The notes beneath the pieces were generated by a model, which was not told the DNA's origin, did not search any database, and was given only the letters and a program-made list of their open reading frames with translations. From NCBI GenBank assembly GCA_048886185.1, contig JBHLKY010000016.1, forward strand, positions 1 to 32,000: a DNA stretch of 32,000 nucleotides. Reading direction: 5' to 3'. Within the stretch, counting starts at the first letter, position 1, and every line of letters starts with the position of its first letter. The stretch is from Candidatus Hermodarchaeota archaeon (GTDB lineage: Archaea; Asgardarchaeota; Heimdallarchaeia; Hodarchaeales; Hodarchaeaceae). A program made the position numbers and the translations under genes. Shown one piece after another: positions 21,039 through 27,076 of the stretch.

Positions 21039-21277
21039 AACAAGTACAACTCCTAGTCTTTTTTGGTTAACTGATTAAAAAATTCTATTTTACTAGGCAA
21101 TTCCCTCTAATTCGTGAACATTTTTAGTTATCTTGCATAACAATGGTTAAGAATTGTGAAAAGAAGTTATTTGGAAAGTCCTAAATAAACATTAAAACAA
21201 AATTAATTTAATGGTTCTAGAACTATCTGATCGTTGAAAGAAAATGAATTCTTAAGAAGTTAATGAGGTTCTTTTTG

Positions 21278-21820
21278 TTGCAGAATGAGTGGGTCTTGAA
21301 AATCTGTTCTGCTGGATCCTATCAAGTCGGTAAAACCAGCCTGATCCGCCGATATGCAGAAGGAAAATTCATTTATGATTATTTACCAACAATTGGTGTG
21401 GACATCACAACAAAAAGAGTAACTATTGATAACCAAAATGTTAAGCTTGTCCTTGTCGACACTGCGGGGGAAGAATATTTTGGGCGCATTCGCAAGACAT
21501 ATTTTGAAGGTGCGTTCAGTTGTATCATTGTTTTTGATATCACTCGTCACGAGACATTTGAGGAGCTAGATCGTTGGATTTCCGATTTTAGAAGTGTTGC
21601 TGGAGAAGATGCTGCTATCACAATAGTAGGAAATAAGAATGATTTAGAAGATCTTCGTAATGTGACATATCAACAAGGAAAGAAGTTTGCAGATCAATAC
21701 AAAGTGCCATTTTACGAATGTTCAGCTAAACTGGGGGGAGATGTAATCCCAAAAATTTACGAAAATCTAATTCGGAAATATCTCAGAACATTACAGGAGA
21801 ACGAGGCATTGGGTGATTAA
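21278..21820 (+). CDS. Rab-like small GTPase, paralog 1 (switch II DTAGEE)
   Basis: GSYQVGKT, PTIGVD, DTAGEE, YFEGA, VFDIT, GNKND, ECSAK. TTG 21278 (after GAGGT) aligns exactly with the Met of paralog 2; ORF track starts at 21263. Confidence 0.92.
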   Translation: MQNEWVLKICSAGSYQVGKTSLIRRYAEGKFIYDYLPTIGVDITTKRVTIDNQNVKLVLVDTAGEEYFGRIRKTYFEGAFSCIIVFDITRHETFEELDRWISDFRSVAGEDAAITIVGNKNDLEDLRNVTYQQGKKFADQYKVPFYECSAKLGGDVIPKIYENLIRKYLRTLQENEALGD

Positions 21821-22022: not shown

Positions 22023-22553
22023 ATGAGTGATGATTTAATTTTAAAGATCTGTTCTGCTGGGTCTTATGGAGTGGGTAAAACAAGCCTTATCCGACGTTAT
22101 GCTGAAAATAAGTTTTCTTCAAGCTATACACCCACCATTGGTGTAGACATCACAACAAAGCGAGTGACAGTAAATAACCATAAAATCAAACTTCTTTTAA
22201 TTGATACAGCGGGACAGGAGTATTTTGGCAAGATTCGAAAATACTATTTTGAGGGAGCTTTTAGCTGCATAGTTGTTTACGATATTACAAGGTATGATTC
22301 ATTCTCTGATCTCGACCGATGGATTACTGATTTTAAAAGCGTAGTTGGAGAAAAAGCACTGATAGCAATTATAGGAAATAAAAGTGATTTAGAAGAATTA
22401 CGGACAGTACAAAGTGAGGAAGGACGAAACTATGCAGAAAAGCACGGATTTCCTTTCTACGAGTGTTCTGCAAAACTTGGAGGAGAAGTTATTCCCAAAT
22501 TATACACTGATCTCGTTCATCAATATCTTTTTTCCTTAGGAGAAGTAGATTGA
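22023..22553 (+). CDS. Rab-like small GTPase, paralog 2 (switch II DTAGQE)
   Basis: GSYGVGKT, PTIGVD, DTAGQE, YFEGA, VYDIT, GNKSD, ECSAK; colinear with paralog 1. Confidence 0.93.
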   Translation: MSDDLILKICSAGSYGVGKTSLIRRYAENKFSSSYTPTIGVDITTKRVTVNNHKIKLLLIDTAGQEYFGKIRKYYFEGAFSCIVVYDITRYDSFSDLDRWITDFKSVVGEKALIAIIGNKSDLEELRTVQSEEGRNYAEKHGFPFYECSAKLGGEVIPKLYTDLVHQYLFSLGEVD

Positions 22554-22609: not shown

Positions 22610-23881
22610 TCATTCTTCCTCGGGTAGAACGAAATCAGGTACAGTCTTAGGGAGGGTAGATTCAGTGTTGTCAAATTTTTTAAGATCGTTTATATTTACG
22701 TTTAATTCCACTTTAGACTCTTCTGATTCAGTGGGTTCATCGTCTACGGTTTCCACATCACCTTTTTCAGGTTCCTGAGGAGATTCATCTTCTGCAGGTT
22801 CCACTCCAACCTCAAATTCCTCAGGAGACTCAAATTCTTCAGATTCAGTCTTAATCTCCTCTACTGATTCTTTGTCTACTGTTATTTCTTCTGCTGGTTT
22901 CTTTTCCGCTTCATTTTCTCCCTTGTCTTCGGCCTCTTCTATTTCCTCCTCTTCCTCCTCTTCTTCCACATCACCCATTAAGCGCTTCAGACGCCACAGC
23001 ATTTGGAGCTTCAGGCGTCGACTTTCATCATCAAAACCGAAATCATTAGCAAATTTCGGTGTTGTCGTATAAGATGTTGATCGTGCGCGGTCTTCCCCTA
23101 TAACGTACCCCCTATTTTCCAAATCTCGGCATATCTCAGTTATTTTTACTGGGCCGATACCTCGGATTATTTTCTTTACCAATGCTAAGGAGATAGGTTG
23201 TCGATACGCAATTTCTGTAATAACACGTCGTTCTTCTTCTGTCATGAATTTTTCAGGAAAAAACTCGTGGAAGAACTCGTGATAGATTGGATTGAGCTGG
23301 AGCACCCATCGATCTCTTGAAATTTCTTCAATAACAATTGGAGAAGTCCGCTTTCTTTGGCGTGAGAGTTTTCTTATGGTCCGTTTTACAAGAGGTGATT
23401 CTTCTTGTAGACTCTCAATGAGTTCATCTGCGTGTATTGGTCTTCCAATAGAAAACAAAGCACCCTCGATTCGTTCCTCTAGGCTGATGGGCACGAGCTT
23501 TATTGGAGCTATAATGGCTGTATCAAGTTTGGTTTGAACAGGAAGTTGAGCTTTTAAGAGTTCAGGTGATATGAAGCTGTTTATTGACACCTCAGATTCA
23601 ACTATTGCCCCTGCGAAGGGAAGAAAATCTAGAATGGGTTCTAGTATCGCGGGTTCCTCGGGAATTGGTTCTGAGATTACTTTGGGAAGTGTGGCGAATT
23701 GTTCTTCAAATGGAGTTTCTGTGGTAGTATAGACTTCTATTGATTGCATCTGCGATTCTTCTTGAGTTTCCTGTGATATTTCCGCAGCTGGAGTAATTAT
23801 ATCACTTTTAGTGTCTACTTCCTCCTCTATAGTTTTTTCCTTCTTCTTATCTTTCTTTCTTCGACGGAAAAGACGAAACAT
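22610..23881 (-). CDS. scpB: ScpB/kite-family protein with long N-terminal and acidic C-terminal extensions
   Basis: Core aa ~134-302: IEGALFSIGRPI, EIAYRQPIS..IRG, YTTTPKFANDFG, the tandem wHTH pattern of ScpB. Confidence 0.85.
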   Translation of the reverse strand: MFRLFRRRKKDKKKEKTIEEEVDTKSDIITPAAEISQETQEESQMQSIEVYTTTETPFEEQFATLPKVISEPIPEEPAILEPILDFLPFAGAIVESEVSINSFISPELLKAQLPVQTKLDTAIIAPIKLVPISLEERIEGALFSIGRPIHADELIESLQEESPLVKRTIRKLSRQRKRTSPIVIEEISRDRWVLQLNPIYHEFFHEFFPEKFMTEEERRVITEIAYRQPISLALVKKIIRGIGPVKITEICRDLENRGYVIGEDRARSTSYTTTPKFANDFGFDDESRRLKLQMLWRLKRLMGDVEEEEEEEEIEEAEDKGENEAEKKPAEEITVDKESVEEIKTESEEFESPEEFEVGVEPAEDESPQEPEKGDVETVDDEPTESEESKVELNVNINDLKKFDNTESTLPKTVPDFVLPEEE

Positions 23882-23897
23882 GGGTTATCACAGATTT

Positions 23898-24461
23898 TTA
23901 ATCTTCATACTGAAGTTGACGGAGAGCGTAGTCTTTTAGTCCTTTTCGAATAGCAATTTTGGTTCTCTCTGATTCAACTGGTAATTTGAACAAATGGAGA
24001 AAATCCTCTGTTACATTAATCACATTTCTTTTCCCCTTAGGAGTAATAGTTATCAGATTCATTGCTTTTAATTCTTCTAAGTCATCCTTAGCCCTTGTTC
24101 CAAGAATTTTCTGGAGTTTACTCGGTGTAACCTGTTCCTCTAGAACGTACTCCTTGAAAGCAACGAGACTCAGTACCTTTAATAGGTGTCTAGGAACCTC
24201 TGAACGTTTAATAAATGGCCAATGTAAATGAGCCGCTACCTCCTCTCTTAGTCTTAATTGAACGGTATGGTCATCCGTACGGAAAATAGTGTAAGCTGTT
24301 TTTTGATCAAGATGAACGTCAATAATTTTCTCAATAAGACGTTCTACTTCTCCTTCATCTTTCTGAATAAGTTCTGCTAGCTCGGTATAGCTCATTGGCC
24401 TATCAAATAGGTATAACGCTGCCTCTATAACATTTTTTTCTTTTAAAGCTTTAATCTCCAT
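23898..24461 (-). CDS. scpB: Second, compact and divergent ScpB/kite-family protein
   Basis: VIEAALYLFDRPMSYTELAELI, LKVLSLVAFKE..VT, VTEDFLHLFKL match the ScpB pattern; 187 aa; 16 nt upstream of the other scpB. Confidence 0.8.
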   Translation of the reverse strand: MEIKALKEKNVIEAALYLFDRPMSYTELAELIQKDEGEVERLIEKIIDVHLDQKTAYTIFRTDDHTVQLRLREEVAAHLHWPFIKRSEVPRHLLKVLSLVAFKEYVLEEQVTPSKLQKILGTRAKDDLEELKAMNLITITPKGKRNVINVTEDFLHLFKLPVESERTKIAIRKGLKDYALRQLQYED

Positions 24462-24585
24462 TGCTAGATCCGAGTCCGAGGAAAAGAATAATCCATTTTT
24501 AAAGTCGAGGAGCTATGGCTTTATATTCATTTTTCAATATTATCCATTCTTCATAAATCATTTCTGTTTGATCATTTTGTTGAAT

Positions 24586-24604
24586 GAAAAACTTAATTTA
24601 TACT
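24586..24604 (+). promoter_or_regulatory. Candidate BRE/TATA for the TrmB-like gene within the divergent scpB/trmB intergenic region
   Basis: GAAAAACTTAATTTATACT: purine run followed by TTTATA (24597-24602), about 70 nt before the ATG. The region is AT-rich, so chance matches are likely. Confidence 0.3.
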
Positions 24605-24673
24605 AAGGCTGTATGAAACTAAAAGTGTTGGAAAATTATTCATAAATAAAGAAATTTCTTTGGAAGTGAGATA

Positions 24674-27076
24674 ATGGCTAGTCTAGGATTAGAATCTCTT
24701 GATTTAGATCTTCAAGAGTCGAAAGTATATATCACCCTCCTCGCTTTGGGTCCGCTTTCACTTGGTGAAATTATAAAATATGCTGAATTCTCATCAGCTG
24801 ACGTATTCAAAGCCCTTGAGGGGTTACAGAGTAAGGGTTATATCCACCAAATTCCAGGAATAACTGACCGATATAATGCGATGCTTCCTTTCAATGATTT
24901 AAAAGCATCGACTAATACAACTATTTCACAGATGGAGCAGCTTGCTTCTCAACTTGATGATCATATTGCACAGAGGTTGGAGATCATTTTGGGGAAGTTA
25001 CGCGAAGAATCTCAGAAAATGAGTGCAGGAATTGAAACAGCACGAACTGCAATTGGTCAGGTAGAAATGAAAGGCGAGAGTGAAATTGAAGAAAGAATCG
25101 CAAGATATGCTCTTGAAGTAGAGCAGGGGACTGATCAGACAAAAAGTGACATTATTAAAACATTTGAAATGAAACAAAGCGATCATGAGGCATTAACATC
25201 AAATCTAAAGTCAAATTCACAACAAAAAATAAATGAAATAGGTGCAAAATTTCAGGAAATTAATCAACAATTCCTCGACAAGTATCAGGCGGGAATCGTT
25301 GAATTAGAAACTTCTGAGTCTCAACGAAATCAGAATTTAACCAACACAGCTGAAACTTTAATTTCACAATCCCAAGAATCCTTTTCCCAAGGCATTCAGA
25401 ATGTTAATCTATCAATGACTACCACAGGACAGACGTTGTTCCAATCAATTGATGAAAGAAACGAAAAATTGAGTACACACATAACTAACGTTTCAAATGA
25501 GATGGCCAATACTGTTGCTGAAGTAAGTAGTCAAGGTCAAGAAAAAATTATTGCATCTCTTGGTTTATGTAATGAGAGATTTCAACAACAGCTTGAAGCA
25601 AGTAAACAGAATGCCATGGCAGCTTTTACTTCCACACGAGATGAGCTCAAATCAAAAGCTGTAGAGAGAACAGAAAACTTGCAGCAGCAGTTAAGTGAAA
25701 CTTTAGTAACTACTCAGAACCAGATTATTGAGATGTTACAACAAGCACAGGAAACACTGACAACAAAGGTGAAAGAAGCCAGGAACCTGTTAGAAACCTC
25801 CCTTGGAGAGTTCACAGAGGCAGTTAAAATACAAACAGATAGTGATATGCAACAAGTAATTGTCAATACTGAATCAACCTTTGGTGGGCTCACTCAAGAT
25901 ACTCAATCCACATATGAGCAAACTCATAACCAAGTTGAAGCTGCTTTCAACGAAATGACGTCTAATGCAAAGGGAAAATCAGAGGAGATCAAAGGAGCCG
26001 CTATAGTCGAATTAAATTCAGTTGTTGAAACCTTAAAAGCTGAAATCACATCACAATTAAACCAGTTCAAGCAAATATTATCCCCTCAAGCACAATTTTT
26101 GAAAGATGAACTTACTAAATTTCAAACTGAACTTACAACTTCACGAACTCAAGCAGTAGAGACATTCAAAACTATGATGGCAGATTTCAAATCATCTGTC
26201 AGTGTAAAACACCAAGAAGTCGAAAACCTAGCTACTCAAGAGACTAACGCTTTATTAGAGAATATAAGTCAATTTATAGAATCCCTAAATGAGCAAATAA
26301 AGGAATATGACAGGAAATTCAATACTACACTAACCGAATCGGCTGTAAAAGGGTCAGAGAAACTCATTGTTCATACACGAGAGCTCCAAGAAAAAATGGT
26401 TTCATTAGTGAATGAAATGAGTAAAAACGCCACCGATCAACTCACTGCTACTAGTGAGATGATTTCTACAGGAATTCAGGCGGAAATCACTACATTGGAG
26501 GCAGAACTAAAAGATTATTCCACTAAATTTTATGAGGTGACACAGCGAAATGAGGATGTATTCAAAAACTACTTATTTTCGTTGGAAAAGCTATCTTCTC
26601 TAGTAACTGATACAAAGTATCCTGAGGTTCAAACAGCTCCGATTGTTTCACGGGAGGCTGTATTAAACTATTTGCAAAACATGTTCTCGAGGATGAAAGG
26701 AGGTATGACTTTACTCATTCCTCAAGCAAATGATATTCCGCTTGAACAGATTCTCGAAACAAAAAATCATCAAAGAATCAATTTAGTATCAGTCATTGAT
26801 CCGAACACACACACTGATCTATTGAAAAAACTATTCTCAAAACCAAATGTCCGGATTCGAAAGGTCGATATTGCCAAGTTTGAGGATGTCGAGAAATACA
26901 TTGCCGCGGATCGAGATGGTGAAGAGGTTCTGATTGGGATTACGGAGGATCAAGGAGAAACAGTCGCTATCGCCAGTTTTTCCGACTCATTTGTCACTTT
27001 AATGGGAAAAATCGTTCTTGGGGATTACTTCCTCGCCCGCTCCATAGAAATTAATCGTGCAGAAGTTGGAATGTAA
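24674..27076 (+). CDS. TrmB-family wHTH protein with ~570-aa helical/coiled-coil insert and C-terminal TrmB effector-like (PLD-fold-like) domain
   Basis: aa 1-72 ESKVYITLLALGPLSLGEI..VFKALEGLQSKGYI..RY is TrmB wHTH-like; aa 73-646 helical with one Pro; aa ~652-800 alpha/beta domain (SREAVLNYLQNM..MTLLIP..IAADRDGEEVLIG). Confidence 0.75.
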   Translation: MASLGLESLDLDLQESKVYITLLALGPLSLGEIIKYAEFSSADVFKALEGLQSKGYIHQIPGITDRYNAMLPFNDLKASTNTTISQMEQLASQLDDHIAQRLEIILGKLREESQKMSAGIETARTAIGQVEMKGESEIEERIARYALEVEQGTDQTKSDIIKTFEMKQSDHEALTSNLKSNSQQKINEIGAKFQEINQQFLDKYQAGIVELETSESQRNQNLTNTAETLISQSQESFSQGIQNVNLSMTTTGQTLFQSIDERNEKLSTHITNVSNEMANTVAEVSSQGQEKIIASLGLCNERFQQQLEASKQNAMAAFTSTRDELKSKAVERTENLQQQLSETLVTTQNQIIEMLQQAQETLTTKVKEARNLLETSLGEFTEAVKIQTDSDMQQVIVNTESTFGGLTQDTQSTYEQTHNQVEAAFNEMTSNAKGKSEEIKGAAIVELNSVVETLKAEITSQLNQFKQILSPQAQFLKDELTKFQTELTTSRTQAVETFKTMMADFKSSVSVKHQEVENLATQETNALLENISQFIESLNEQIKEYDRKFNTTLTESAVKGSEKLIVHTRELQEKMVSLVNEMSKNATDQLTATSEMISTGIQAEITTLEAELKDYSTKFYEVTQRNEDVFKNYLFSLEKLSSLVTDTKYPEVQTAPIVSREAVLNYLQNMFSRMKGGMTLLIPQANDIPLEQILETKNHQRINLVSVIDPNTHTDLLKKLFSKPNVRIRKVDIAKFEDVEKYIAADRDGEEVLIGITEDQGETVAIASFSDSFVTLMGKIVLGDYFLARSIEINRAEVGM

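What the first reader, a model, noticed from the sequence alone, without database searches (positions are those of the whole stretch)
24674..27076. TrmB regulator stretched into a rod: ~570-aa helical insert between DNA-binding and effector domains
Seen: residues 73-646 (nt ~24890-26611) contain a single Pro (aa 471), are rich in Q/E/T/S/N and show by eye an 11-residue hydrophobic period (TQNQIIEMLQQ / AQETLTTKVKE / ARNLLETSLGE / FTEAVKIQTDS). No TM segment. Established: ordinary TrmB proteins have only a short dimerisation helix at this position; hendecad repeats form straight or right-handed coiled coils. Inference: at 0.15 nm per residue this is a rod of ~85 nm, or ~43 nm if folded back, similar to an SMC arm. 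It could bridge distant DNA sites, form filaments, or link the chromosome to another structure under ligand control.
Basis: partly seen in the sequence, partly recalled or inferred. Interest (0 to 1): 0.8.

Follow-up and report, generated by a model that had tools for sequence, protein, structure and literature searches.

The report
Giant folded-back TrmB-like rod protein
An 800-residue protein of Hodarchaeales (Asgard archaea) has the two end domains of the archaeal chromatin protein TrmBL2, joined by a 570-residue helical stalk of strictly fixed length that most likely folds back on itself, and its gene always sits inside the SMC/ScpA/ScpB chromosome-condensation cluster; nobody has described it.

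Summary
ORF 24674-27076 (+) encodes 800 aa: a TrmB winged helix (aa 1-72, Pfam above cut-off), a helical region (aa 73-641) and a C-terminal PLD-like domain. The helical region has one Pro and a single sharp hydropathy period of 3.67 (11/3) that stays in phase for about 570 residues. The C-terminal domain superposes on TrmB/TrmBL2 (Z 14.0, rmsd 2.6 A).

New points:
- The sugar-binding subdomain is absent, so the protein is TrmBL2-type and has no evident effector site.
- Forty orthologues (46-76% identity) have no indel between aa 2 and 711.
- In four robust cases across the superfamily, net length changes lie at 0.46-0.53 of the rod. With the AlphaFold break at aa 355-360, this favours an antiparallel fold-back stalk of about 42 nm over a straight parallel 85-nm rod.
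- The gene lies between scpB and scpA-like/smc in all orthologous loci with enough flank.
- It belongs to a superfamily found so far only in Asgard archaea (660-1860 aa), with four paralogues in this genome.
- The recognition helix carries acidic residues where TrmBL2 has arginines, so DNA binding is unproven.

Function is inferred only. No paper describes it. The scan noted this stretch once before (e1-5455139).

The parts
24674..27076 (+). Whole gene, 800 codons plus stop
   Evidence: More than 60 full-length orthologue clusters of 799-802 aa.
24586..24603 (+). Conserved promoter-like element (BRE/TATA-like AAAACTTAATTTA), about 85 nt upstream of the ATG
   Evidence: Conserved in the upstream regions of 9 orthologous loci. 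Sequence read. Its promoter function is inferred.
24662..24669 (+). Conserved GGAAGTGA ribosome-binding-like motif just upstream of the ATG
24674..24889 (+). aa 1-72: TrmB-type winged helix-turn-helix
   Evidence: Pfam PF01978 39.4 bits against cut-off 25.6. Best PDB sequence hit is TrmBL2, E 7e-7. AlphaFold H14-25, H30-37, H41-53 and wing strands. The recognition helix carries D43 and E49 where TrmBL2 has Arg.
24890..25735 (+). aa 73-354: N-arm, one continuous predicted helix with hendecad register
25391..25471 (+). aa 240-266: conserved island on the N-arm (G240, G252, S258-N263)
25736..25753 (+). aa 355-360: predicted turn (tip) of the stalk, or dyad of an antiparallel dimer
   Evidence: AlphaFold break with pLDDT about 45. 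The 7-residue insertion of the 808-aa orthologues maps to aa 360-374 in 5 of 5 comparisons. Chemoreceptor hairpins align to model residues 198-513.
25754..26596 (+). aa 361-641: C-arm, one continuous predicted helix, same length as the N-arm
25829..25888 (+). aa 386-405: conserved island on the C-arm (QTDSD...TESTFGG)
26084..26086 (+). Pro471, the only proline of the rod, nearly invariant and followed by invariant Q472
26636..27073 (+). aa 655-800: PLD-like alpha/beta domain of TrmB/TrmBL2 type. HKD catalytic residues are absent. Conserved motifs are AADRDGEEV and MGKIVLGDYFLARS.
   Evidence: VIA-align Z 14.0, rmsd 2.6 A over 129 residues with TrmB 2f5t residues 110-243. 3qph gives Z 13.7 and TrmBL2 5bpd Z 13.2. 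Foldseek probability 1.0. Invariant columns.
23898..24461 (-). scpB (187 aa), transcribed divergently from the rod gene across a 212-nt spacer
   Evidence: Pfam SMC_ScpB 61 bits. Adjacent in all orthologous loci with enough flank.
22610..23881 (-). Second, longer scpB paralogue (423 aa, acidic tail)
   Evidence: Pfam SMC_ScpB 64 bits. TIGR00281 58.7 bits, below its cut-off of 89. Synteny.
27081..27944 (-). 287-aa gene convergent with the rod gene (4 nt between the two stops) and directly downstream of smc. Probable but unconfirmed kleisin (ScpA).
   Evidence: By position. Atlas feature score 0.94 to clusters in which 19-25% of members carry PF02616. No Pfam or NCBIfam hit. No PF02616 match anywhere in the 96%-complete genome. 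The AlphaFold model is too poor to use, pLDDT 45.5.
27974..31549 (-). smc (1191 aa)
   Evidence: Pfam SMC_N 140 bits. Adjacent in 13 of 15 loci with enough flank.

Best explanation
This is a TrmBL2-type member of the TrmB family. It has a winged-helix domain and a catalytically dead PLD-like domain, and no sugar-binding subdomain. The short dimerisation helix of ordinary TrmB proteins is replaced by about 570 residues of hendecad (11/3) coiled coil.

The coiled coil is most likely folded back on itself at aa ~357. That gives two equal antiparallel arms of 282 and 281 residues, a stalk of about 42 nm. Both globular domains would sit together at the base, and a moderately conserved tip would lie 42 nm away. 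Two such hairpins probably pair into a four-helix rod, as chemoreceptor cytoplasmic domains do. That would keep two winged helices side by side, as in TrmB/TrmBL2 dimers.

Stalk length is under very strong selection. The stalk therefore acts as a fixed-length spacer or a conformational link between base and tip, not as a floppy linker.

The gene is locked between scpB and scpA-like/smc throughout Hodarchaeales. The likeliest role is therefore as an accessory or adaptor of the SMC-ScpAB complex, or of the nucleoid it organises. Nothing here identifies which end binds what.

Shown here: domain identities, periodicity, length invariance, central location of length changes, synteny, distribution.
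Inferred: hairpin rather than intermolecular antiparallel pairing, dimerisation, any binding to DNA or SMC.

My sub-odds:
- architecture as described: 0.9
- antiparallel arrangement symmetric about aa ~357: 0.8
- intramolecular hairpin: 0.6
- functional link to SMC-ScpAB: 0.4
For: Domains:
- Pfam TrmB wHTH is above cut-off. TrmBL2 is the best PDB sequence hit, E 7e-7.
- The C-terminal domain matches TrmB 2f5t residues 110-243 at Z 14.0, rmsd 2.6 A over 129 residues, and TrmBL2 at Z 13.2. The same domain order is described for TrmB/TrmBL2 in PMC4877046.

Rod:
- One hydropathy peak at 3.67 with power 52, against a shuffle maximum of 15. The phase is coherent over about 570 residues.
- 85 of 86 superfamily members of 600 aa or more peak at 3.63-3.685.

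Length constraint:
- No indel between aa 2 and 711 in 40 orthologues down to 46% identity.
- No rod indels in other orthologous groups at 23-45% identity.

Fold-back:
- The best AlphaFold model (pLDDT 74.6, pTM 0.31) has helices 73-354 and 361-641 with a break at 355-360.
- Its residues 198-513 align with chemoreceptor hairpins: 2ch7 Z 11.2 over 307 residues, 3g67 Z 12.0.
- Single-gap scans place net length changes at the rod centre: +7 at 0.51 in 5 of 5 comparisons, +32 at 0.46-0.49 in 4 of 4, -29 at 0.51 in 3 of 3, and -22 at 0.47-0.53 in 3 of 3.
- Four events within +/-0.04 of the centre have a chance of about 4e-5 under uniform placement (my arithmetic).

Base association (ESMFold2 complex of 2 x aa 1-200 with 2 x aa 520-800):
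- Verdict 'weak support', ipSAE 0.40, best of 3 controls 0.00.
- The mark was reached by 58 of 80 solved complexes and 2 of 110 mismatches. At 0.60 or under it was reached by only 7 of those 80 and by both passing mismatches.
- The runs agree in at least 77% of contacts, and the partner's pLDDT is at least 71.

Context:
- The order ScpB-long, ScpB, rod, ScpA-like, SMC holds in all 15 loci with enough flank.
- The two most divergent loci (40-41% identity) have lost adjacent smc but keep scpB, rod and scpA-like.
Against: - Only one of five AlphaFold models was confident, pTM is 0.31, and the turn itself has pLDDT about 45. Monomer predictions can turn an antiparallel homodimer into a false hairpin.
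- The centre has no Gly or Pro, and the hendecad phase runs through it almost unbroken. The mean shift across 88 family members is -28 degrees. That would also fit a continuous helix.
- The helical structural matches (Z 10-13) are below the level the tool calls meaningful for long helices.
- Mirror symmetry of conservation about i+j=713 vanished after detrending. Covariation was uninformative at Neff 17.
- The complex prediction is only 'weak support'.
- The SMC link rests on synteny within one family of fairly close relatives. Other neighbours (the POR operon, a Ras-like GTPase) are mostly conserved there too.
- In two other families of the class, the nearest rod homologues and scpB lie on different contigs.
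- The three paralogues in this genome are not next to SMC genes.
- The kleisin identity of the 287-aa neighbour is unconfirmed.
Confidence: 0.45

Rival explanations
1. Extended antiparallel dimer, or tetramer of two such pairs. Each chain is one continuous 85-nm helix paired head-to-tail with a second chain. Each end then carries the winged helix of one chain and the PLD-like domain of the other. The rod could bridge two sites 85 nm apart.
For: - It predicts the same central location of length changes.
- There is no helix breaker at the centre, and the hendecad phase is nearly continuous across it in most family members.
- The net length changes (7, 11, 22, 29) are close to whole numbers of 3.67-residue turns (my arithmetic).
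- The weak-support complex of N-base with C-base does not distinguish intra- from intermolecular pairing.
Against: - AlphaFold places a turn at aa 355-360.
- Chemoreceptor hairpins also lack Gly/Pro at their tips and keep their register through them (my knowledge of Tsr/Tar structures, not tested here). The 'no breaker' argument is therefore weak.
- Each end would have a single winged helix, whereas TrmB/TrmBL2 use pairs (PMC4877046).
- The 808-aa orthologues insert a segment ending in Asp-Gly exactly at the centre.
Confidence: 0.22
2. Ordinary autoregulating transcription factor. The winged helix binds the 212-nt divergent promoter region shared with scpB and controls the scpB and smc operons. 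The stalk is only a sensor or oligomerisation device.
For: - The arrangement is divergent with scpB, with separate conserved TATA-like elements about 95 nt apart.
- The TrmB family are regulators, and TrmBL2 is also a global repressor (PMC3031468 abstract).
Against: - No conserved palindrome stood out between the two promoters when I read the aligned upstream regions. I did not run a dedicated repeat or motif search.
- The recognition helix lacks the TrmBL2 arginines and carries conserved D43 and E49. The domain has net charge -4.
- A 570-residue stalk held to exactly the same length over more than 60 orthologue clusters is not explained by this role.
- The paralogues sit in unrelated contexts.
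Confidence: 0.12
3. Lipid- or membrane-surface-binding amphipathic helix of the apolipoprotein / perilipin / LEA type, tethering a winged-helix domain (and its ligand) to a membrane or lipid body.
For: - Weak Pfam similarity to Apolipoprotein A1/A4/E (68 bits, 4 stretches) and faint ApoLp-III hits in relatives.
- An 11/3 periodicity is the hallmark of such helices (established knowledge).
Against: - The Pfam score is below the gathering cut-off of 90.
- There is no Pro punctuation: one Pro in 574 residues.
- The rod is strongly acidic, net -16 per arm, with few Lys/Arg.
- The hydrophobic positions are only 35-66% occupied and rich in Thr/Ser/Gln.
- Lipid-binding 11-mer arrays should tolerate loss or gain of repeats anywhere. 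Here length is invariant and changes occur only at the centre.
Confidence: 0.06
4. Non-DNA-binding structural scaffold. The winged helix has become a protein-binding module, as in ScpB and kleisin winged helices. The family forms cytoskeleton- or matrix-like rods or bundles in Asgard cells, and the SMC neighbourhood is incidental.
For: - The recognition helix is acidic throughout the superfamily: position 42 is E/D in 39 of 77 members and position 49 in 37 of 77.
- Whole-protein pI is 4.8.
- There are four paralogues per genome, and members reach 1860 aa.
- Named members are all Asgard.
Against: - The wing Arg66 (R/K in 73 of 77) and K54 (K/R in 63 of 77) are retained.
- Synteny with scpB/scpA-like survives local rearrangement.
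- No filament-forming feature was identified.
Confidence: 0.15

Closest known systems
TrmBL2 (TK0471 / PF0496), archaeal chromatin protein and global repressor; PDB 5box, 5bpd
   Same: - Same order of homologous parts: TrmB wHTH, then an amphipathic helix, then a PLD-like domain, with no sugar-binding subdomain.
- It is the best PDB sequence hit for the N-terminus (E 7e-7).
- The C-terminal domain matches at Z 13.2.
   Different: - TrmBL2 is 264 aa with a helix of roughly 35 residues. Here the helix region is 570 residues and probably a hairpin.
- The NCBIfam TrmBL2 equivalog scores 23 bits against a cut-off of 530.
- The arginines of the TrmBL2 recognition helix are Asp/Glu here.
- TrmBL2 is from Thermococcales; this protein is from Asgard archaea.
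TrmB / TrmBL1 sugar-sensing regulators (PDB 2f5t, 3qph)
   Same: The wHTH family is the same, and the PLD-like N-subdomain of the effector-binding domain matches at Z 14.0 and 13.7, rmsd 2.5-2.6 A.
   Different: The C-terminal sugar-binding subdomain is absent. Only TrmB residues 110-243 are matched, and the protein ends there. There is no basis for sugar control.
Cytoplasmic signalling hairpin of methyl-accepting chemotaxis proteins (PDB 1qu7, 2ch7, 3g67)
   Same: - Long antiparallel helical hairpin that dimerises into a four-helix bundle.
- Length is invariant within a class, and the register runs through a tip without Gly/Pro (my knowledge).
- The model's residues 198-513 superpose on 2ch7 at Z 11.2 over 307 residues.
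   Different: - There is no sequence relationship: no MCPsignal Pfam hit.
- The repeat is a hendecad, not a heptad.
- The stalk is about twice as long.
- The base domains are a wHTH and a PLD-like fold, not HAMP or transmembrane segments.
- The Z values are below the tool's threshold for helical folds.
Antiparallel coiled-coil arms of SMC, Rad50 and MukB
   Same: - Globular domains are held at the base of an intramolecular antiparallel coiled coil of 40-50 nm.
- Cohesin and condensin arms appear among the structural matches (7ogt_B Z 12.9, 6yvu_B Z 9.8).
- It is encoded next to a real SMC.
   Different: - No ABC ATPase head, and no hinge or zinc hook at the tip.
- rmsd values are 66-100 A, so only the general shape is shared.
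11-mer amphipathic repeat proteins (apolipoprotein A-I/A-IV/E, apolipophorin III, LEA, perilipin)
   Same: The 11/3 hydrophobic period is shared, and there is weak Pfam similarity (68 bits).
   Different: - The score is below the gathering cut-off.
- There is no proline punctuation.
- The rod is acidic.
- Length is fixed, with changes only at the centre.
Peripheral stalk of A/V-type ATPases (right-handed hendecad coiled coil)
   Same: It is the best-known archaeal hendecad coiled coil acting as a stiff rod (PMC3293630, PMC6131620, found).
   Different: That stalk is a parallel heterodimer of about 100 residues with no sequence similarity. NCBIfam gave only a chance-level hit to ATP synthase subunit B' (E 0.014).

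Membership tests
TrmB family (Pfam PF01978 plus the TrmB/TrmBL2 structural architecture) | N-terminal winged helix-turn-helix matching PF01978 above its gathering score | tested here: met
   39.4 bits against cut-off 25.6, aa 6-70. TrmBL2 is the best PDB sequence match, E 7e-7.
TrmB family (Pfam PF01978 plus the TrmB/TrmBL2 structural architecture) | Amphipathic dimerisation helix directly after the wHTH | tested here: inconclusive
   A helix starts at aa 73, as in TrmBL2. It runs for 282 residues and is predicted to be one arm of a hairpin. Self-association got only weak support: ipSAE 0.40 against a best control of 0.00.
TrmB family (Pfam PF01978 plus the TrmB/TrmBL2 structural architecture) | PLD-like domain after the helix | tested here: met
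   Z 14.0, rmsd 2.6 A over 129 residues with TrmB 2f5t residues 110-243. Z 13.7 with 3qph. Foldseek probability 1.0.
TrmB family (Pfam PF01978 plus the TrmB/TrmBL2 structural architecture) | DNA binding through the recognition helix and wing | not testable with these tools
   Sequence only. The wing Arg66 and K54 are conserved. TrmBL2's two recognition-helix arginines align with D43 and E49, and the domain has net charge -4.
Sugar-sensing TrmB / TrmBL1 subgroup | C-terminal sugar-binding subdomain after the PLD-like subdomain | tested here: not met
   The protein ends at aa 800, 5 residues after the stretch that aligns with TrmB 110-243. No Pfam hit to the TrmB C-terminal regulator domain. The role of this subdomain is described in PMC4877046.
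TrmBL2 orthologues (NCBIfam NF041141, equivalog) | Full-length match above the curated cut-off | tested here: not met
   23.1 bits against a cut-off of 530. Only aa 4-77 match.
Apolipoprotein A1/A4/E (Pfam PF01442) | Score above the gathering cut-off | tested here: not met
   68.4 bits against a cut-off of 90.
Apolipoprotein A1/A4/E (Pfam PF01442) | Tandem 11/22-mers punctuated by proline | tested here: not met
   The 11-residue period is present, but there is only one Pro in 574 residues.
Chemoreceptor (MCP) signalling domain | Sequence membership (Pfam MCPsignal) and the conserved tip motif | tested here: not met
   No such Pfam hit at E<=0.01. Only the shape is similar, Z 10-12.
SMC-ScpAB (condensin) complex subunits | Homology to SMC, kleisin (ScpA) or kite (ScpB) | tested here: not met
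   None of these families hit the 800-aa protein. It is only encoded among them.

The most novel reading that the evidence does not exclude
The protein is a previously unrecognised fixed-length accessory subunit of the SMC-ScpAB complex in Hodarchaeales, the closest archaeal relatives of eukaryotes. For example, its 42-nm four-helix stalk could lie along or gauge the roughly 50-nm SMC arm, or its base could recruit the complex to particular chromosomal sites, as ParB does in bacteria. More broadly, the superfamily of winged-helix-plus-hendecad-rod proteins, known so far only from Asgard archaea (four per genome, up to 1860 aa), would be a new class of nucleoid or cell scaffolding proteins.
Probability: 0.15. 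Interest if true: 0.9.

Novelty: new variant of a known kind. Interest (0 to 1): 0.68.

Why it matters
- How archaeal SMC complexes are loaded or positioned is unknown, and Asgard chromatin is being studied for clues to the origin of eukaryotic chromosome organisation.
- This gene is fixed inside the smc/scpA-like/scpB cluster of Hodarchaeales. It combines a chromatin-protein scaffold (TrmBL2 type) with a stalk whose length is held invariant. That makes it a concrete, testable candidate for a new partner of archaeal condensin.
- Independently of function, the family offers very long, phase-coherent hendecad coiled coils (about 570 to more than 1000 residues). It also shows a clear evolutionary signature of an antiparallel stalk, with length changes only at the centre. 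Both are useful for coiled-coil structural biology and protein design.

Tried and rejected
- **Mirror symmetry of conservation about i+j=713.** It was the top of 666 sums in the raw profile (r 0.37, z 3.2). It dropped to fifth after detrending and disappeared after removing the 11/3 component. I do not use it as evidence.
- **Covariation.** Mutual information along anti-diagonals was uninformative, with Neff 17.
- **Internal duplication.** No large-scale internal duplication was found, only lags that are multiples of 11.
- **First single-gap scan.** It used wrong end offsets for some pairs and gave scattered positions. It was redone with optimised offsets. The P0048 (+11) and P0170 (-59) cases stay poorly resolved and are not counted. 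Alignments of the 905-aa group, P0076 and P0164 were too noisy to use.
- **Kleisin identity of the 287-aa neighbour.**
  - No Pfam or NCBIfam hit, and no PDB sequence hit.
  - Its homologues occur only in Hodarchaeales and carry no Pfam domain.
  - The AlphaFold model was too poor for a fold search, pLDDT 45.5.
  - PF02616 was not found anywhere in the genome, even at E<=10.
- **Profile of the C-terminal domain against PDB sequences.** Nothing below E 0.38. The fold had to be recognised by structure.
- **Expression.** No RNA holder was listed for the gene. The four DNA holders are probably the source samples.
- **Apparent gene loss.** The missing gene in one genome of the group is a 100-N scaffold gap.
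- **Literature.** Searches on TrmB + coiled-coil + Asgard, Asgard + SMC/ScpA/ScpB, Asgard + apolipoprotein, and hendecad + archaea found no description of this protein.
- **Distribution outside Asgard archaea.** Not tested.


Full report
**1. The observation**

The ORF at 24674-27076 (+) is open and encodes 800 residues.
- Prolines lie at aa 27, 61, 72, 471, 650 and beyond. The stretch 73-646 therefore holds a single Pro.
- That stretch is 12% Glu, 11% Thr, 10% Gln, 9% Ser and 6% Asn.
- Its Kyte-Doolittle Fourier spectrum has one dominant peak at 3.67 residues (11/3), with power 52. The largest peak in 200 shuffles was 15.4, and there is essentially no power at 3.5.
- On the ortholog-averaged hydropathy profile, the 11/3 phase stays within about 100 degrees from aa 70 to 680.
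- Hydrophobic residues concentrate at five of eleven register positions, with 35-66% occupancy.
- Lags of 11, 22, 33, 44 and 55 are among the best self-similarity lags.
- No window is hydrophobic enough for a membrane helix.

**2. The ends**

*N-terminus.* Pfam places a TrmB winged helix at aa 6-70, at 39.4 bits against a cut-off of 25.6. The best sequence match among solved structures is the chromatin protein TrmBL2, E 7e-7, aa 4-78.

*C-terminus.* No profile library recognises aa 650-800. In the AlphaFold model this part is confident (pLDDT 85-89). It superposes as follows:
- on the PLD-like subdomain of TrmB: 2f5t residues 110-243, Z 14.0, rmsd 2.6 A over 129 residues; 3qph, Z 13.7;
- on TrmBL2: Z 13.2;
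- then on Nuc, FAM83 and PLD enzymes.

The HKD catalytic residues are absent. The equivalent strand reads YIAADRDGEEV, which is invariant or nearly so in the orthologues.

*What is missing.* The protein ends five residues after this subdomain. It therefore lacks the extra sugar-binding domain that TrmB and TrmBL1 have and TrmBL2 lacks (PMC4877046). The architecture is TrmBL2-type. 'Effector control' has no structural basis here.

**3. The rod is folded back, or at least antiparallel and symmetric about its centre**

AlphaFold with 40 orthologues gave its best model at pLDDT 74.6 and pTM 0.31, and the other four models were poorer. It predicts helix 73-354, a break at 355-360 and helix 361-641. 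Residues 198-513 of the model align with chemoreceptor hairpins, and the full arms align with cohesin and condensin arms. These Z values (10-13) are in the range the tool warns is common for long helices.

Independent sequence evidence is stronger.
- Forty orthologues down to 46% identity have no indel at all between aa 2 and 711. More than 60 clusters are 799-802 aa long.
- The same holds in other orthologous groups of the superfamily at 23-45% identity.
- Where related members differ in net rod length, a single-gap scan puts the change at the centre:

| Case | Net change | Position (fraction of rod) | Comparisons |
|---|---|---|---|
| 808-aa orthologues (aa 360-374) | +7 | 0.51 | 5 of 5 |
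| P0068 | +32 | 0.46-0.49 | 4 of 4 |
| P0121 | -29 | 0.51 | 3 of 3 |
| P0112 | -22 | 0.47-0.53 | 3 of 3 |

- Four independent events within +/-0.04 of the centre would occur with probability about 4e-5 if placement were uniform (my arithmetic).

A parallel, in-register 85-nm rod gives no reason for this pattern. A hairpin tip does, and so does the dyad of an antiparallel dimer.

I could not separate the last two.
- The centre lacks Gly/Pro, and the hendecad phase runs through it with only a small systematic shift of about -28 degrees. This fits a continuous helix. From my knowledge of chemoreceptor structures, it is also seen at true hairpin tips.
- A four-chain prediction of the base (2 x aa 1-200 with 2 x aa 520-800) gave 'weak support': ipSAE 0.40 against a best control of 0.00. 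That mark was reached by 58 of 80 solved complexes and 2 of 110 mismatches. At 0.60 or below it was reached by only 7 of those 80 and by both passing mismatches. The runs agree in at least 77% of contacts, and the partner's pLDDT is at least 71.
- Mirror-symmetric conservation and covariation gave nothing robust.

I put the hairpin (about 42 nm) at 0.6, the antiparallel extended pair (about 85 nm) at about 0.2, and other arrangements at the remainder.

**4. DNA binding is not secure**
- In the HMMER alignment, the TrmBL2 recognition helix reads PRTYDVLRSL. This protein has ADVFKALEGL, so the two arginines align with D43 and E49.
- D43 is nearly invariant and E49 is the majority residue in the orthologues.
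- Across 77 superfamily members, position 42 is Glu/Asp in 39 and position 49 in 37. The wing arginine (R66, R/K in 73 of 77) and K54 (K/R in 63 of 77) are kept.
- The domain has net charge -4, each arm -16, and the whole protein has pI 4.8.

The winged helix may bind DNA weakly, differently, or not at all. Winged helices in ScpB and kleisins bind proteins.

**5. Context**

The gene is transcribed divergently from scpB (23898-24461, minus strand) across 212 nt. It converges on a 287-aa gene (27081-27944) that directly follows smc (27974-31549). A second, longer scpB and a Ras-like GTPase lie beyond.
- The order ScpB-long, ScpB, rod, 287-aa gene, SMC is found in every orthologous locus with enough flank. 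That is 15 loci at 40-76% identity for the rod.
- In the two most divergent loci, smc and the GTPase are no longer adjacent, but scpB, the rod and the 287-aa gene stay together.
- The rod evolves faster (40-76%) than SMC (70-88%) or the 287-aa protein (72-88%).
- The 287-aa protein is probably the kleisin. It has the right position, a language-model similarity of 0.94 to clusters partly annotated as ScpA, and no other ScpA match exists in the 96%-complete genome. No profile or usable structure confirms this.
- The synteny argument is limited. All these genomes belong to one family, where other neighbours are mostly conserved too.
- In two other families of the class, the nearest homologues and scpB are on different contigs.
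- The gene has its own conserved promoter-like element (24586-24603) and a GGAAGTGA motif before the ATG.

**6. The family**
- An exhaustive HMMER search found 150 representatives at E<=0.001. Most share the C-terminal domain at the end of proteins of 150-1860 aa. The ones tested also carry the TrmB wHTH and the apolipoprotein-like signal.
- 85 of 86 members of 600 aa or more have their strongest hydropathy period at 3.63-3.685. Powers reach 142 in 1300-aa members.
- This genome has three more such proteins, of 759, 714 and 1396 aa, on other contigs. None is next to SMC genes, and one is next to Ras-like GTPases.
- In a sample of 301 genomes of the phylum, 164 have a match at E<=1e-5. Strict orthologues were seen only in the window's own family, in 18 of 20 genomes. 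One of the two misses is a scaffold gap.
- Every member that carries a source name is from Asgard archaea: Hodarchaeales, Heimdall-, Thor-, Frey- and Sigynarchaeota. I did not search outside the phylum.
- Databases call these proteins 'helix-turn-helix domain-containing', 'sugar-specific transcriptional regulator TrmB' or 'hypothetical'. No paper describing them was found.

**7. Verdict**

It is a TrmBL2-type protein whose dimerisation helix has become a fixed-length, centre-symmetric hendecad stalk. The protein is conserved inside the SMC/ScpB cluster of Hodarchaeales, and it belongs to a large uncharacterised superfamily known so far only from Asgard archaea.

The structural reading (antiparallel stalk, most likely a 42-nm hairpin) is reasonably supported. 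Every functional statement (DNA binding, bridging, partnership with SMC) is inference.

I class it as a new variant of a known kind and rate interest at 0.68.

Noticed in passing
window 22610-24461 (-): Two adjacent, co-directional scpB paralogues of 423 aa and 187 aa both hit Pfam SMC_ScpB. The longer one has a long acidic C-terminal tail. Both are conserved next to the rod gene in all orthologous loci.
   Followed up: partly
window 27081-27944 (-): The 287-aa gene directly downstream of smc has no Pfam or NCBIfam hit, and its homologues occur only in Hodarchaeales. PF02616 (ScpA) is not found anywhere in this 96%-complete genome. If this gene is the kleisin, it is highly divergent. AlphaFold gave pLDDT 45.5, with a C-terminal helix-helix-helix-strand-strand pattern compatible with a winged helix.
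   Followed up: partly
G000:C6:200294-202576 (L022:8295-10577, -); G000:C3:11311-13455 (L023:6312-8456, +); G000:C13:32535-36725 (L024:6536-10726, +): Three paralogues of the rod protein in the same genome, of 759, 714 and 1396 aa. All have the hendecad rod and the C-terminal domain. The 1396-aa one has no detectable TrmB wHTH by Pfam. The 759-aa one is divergent from a cluster that starts with a Ras-like GTPase.
   Followed up: partly
L001:18061-18400 and L002:16497-17666 (-), beyond smc in related genomes: A 389-395-aa gene with faint Apolipoprotein/Baculo_PEP_C hits lies next to two Ras-like GTPase genes, just past smc. It may be another hendecad coiled-coil protein.
   Followed up: no
window 21263-21820 and 22023-22553 (+): Two tandem Ras/Rab-like small GTPase genes lie upstream of the scpB genes. 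The second hits Pfam Ras at 162 bits. A GTPase is conserved at this position in most orthologous loci.
   Followed up: no
L044:5900-6000 (CP070665.1): In this 'chromosome'-level MAG the rod gene is cut by a 100-N scaffold gap that leaves only its last 25 codons. The apparent absence of the gene in that genome is an assembly artefact.
   Followed up: yes
table, genomes of family f3 / genus g7 (e.g. G163:C95, G184:C63, G068:C67, G115:C184, G199:C100, G127:C8): The roughly 750-aa homologues in several genomes of one genus are reported with one TAA inside the match, although the open frame is about 750 aa. This may be read-through of the natural stop by the alignment, or a real in-frame stop.
   Followed up: no
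window 24513-24535: A second conserved AT-rich element (GGCTTTATAT...) lies 55-75 nt upstream of the scpB start on the minus strand. It is probably the scpB TATA box, about 95 nt from the rod gene's own promoter-like element.
   Followed up: partly
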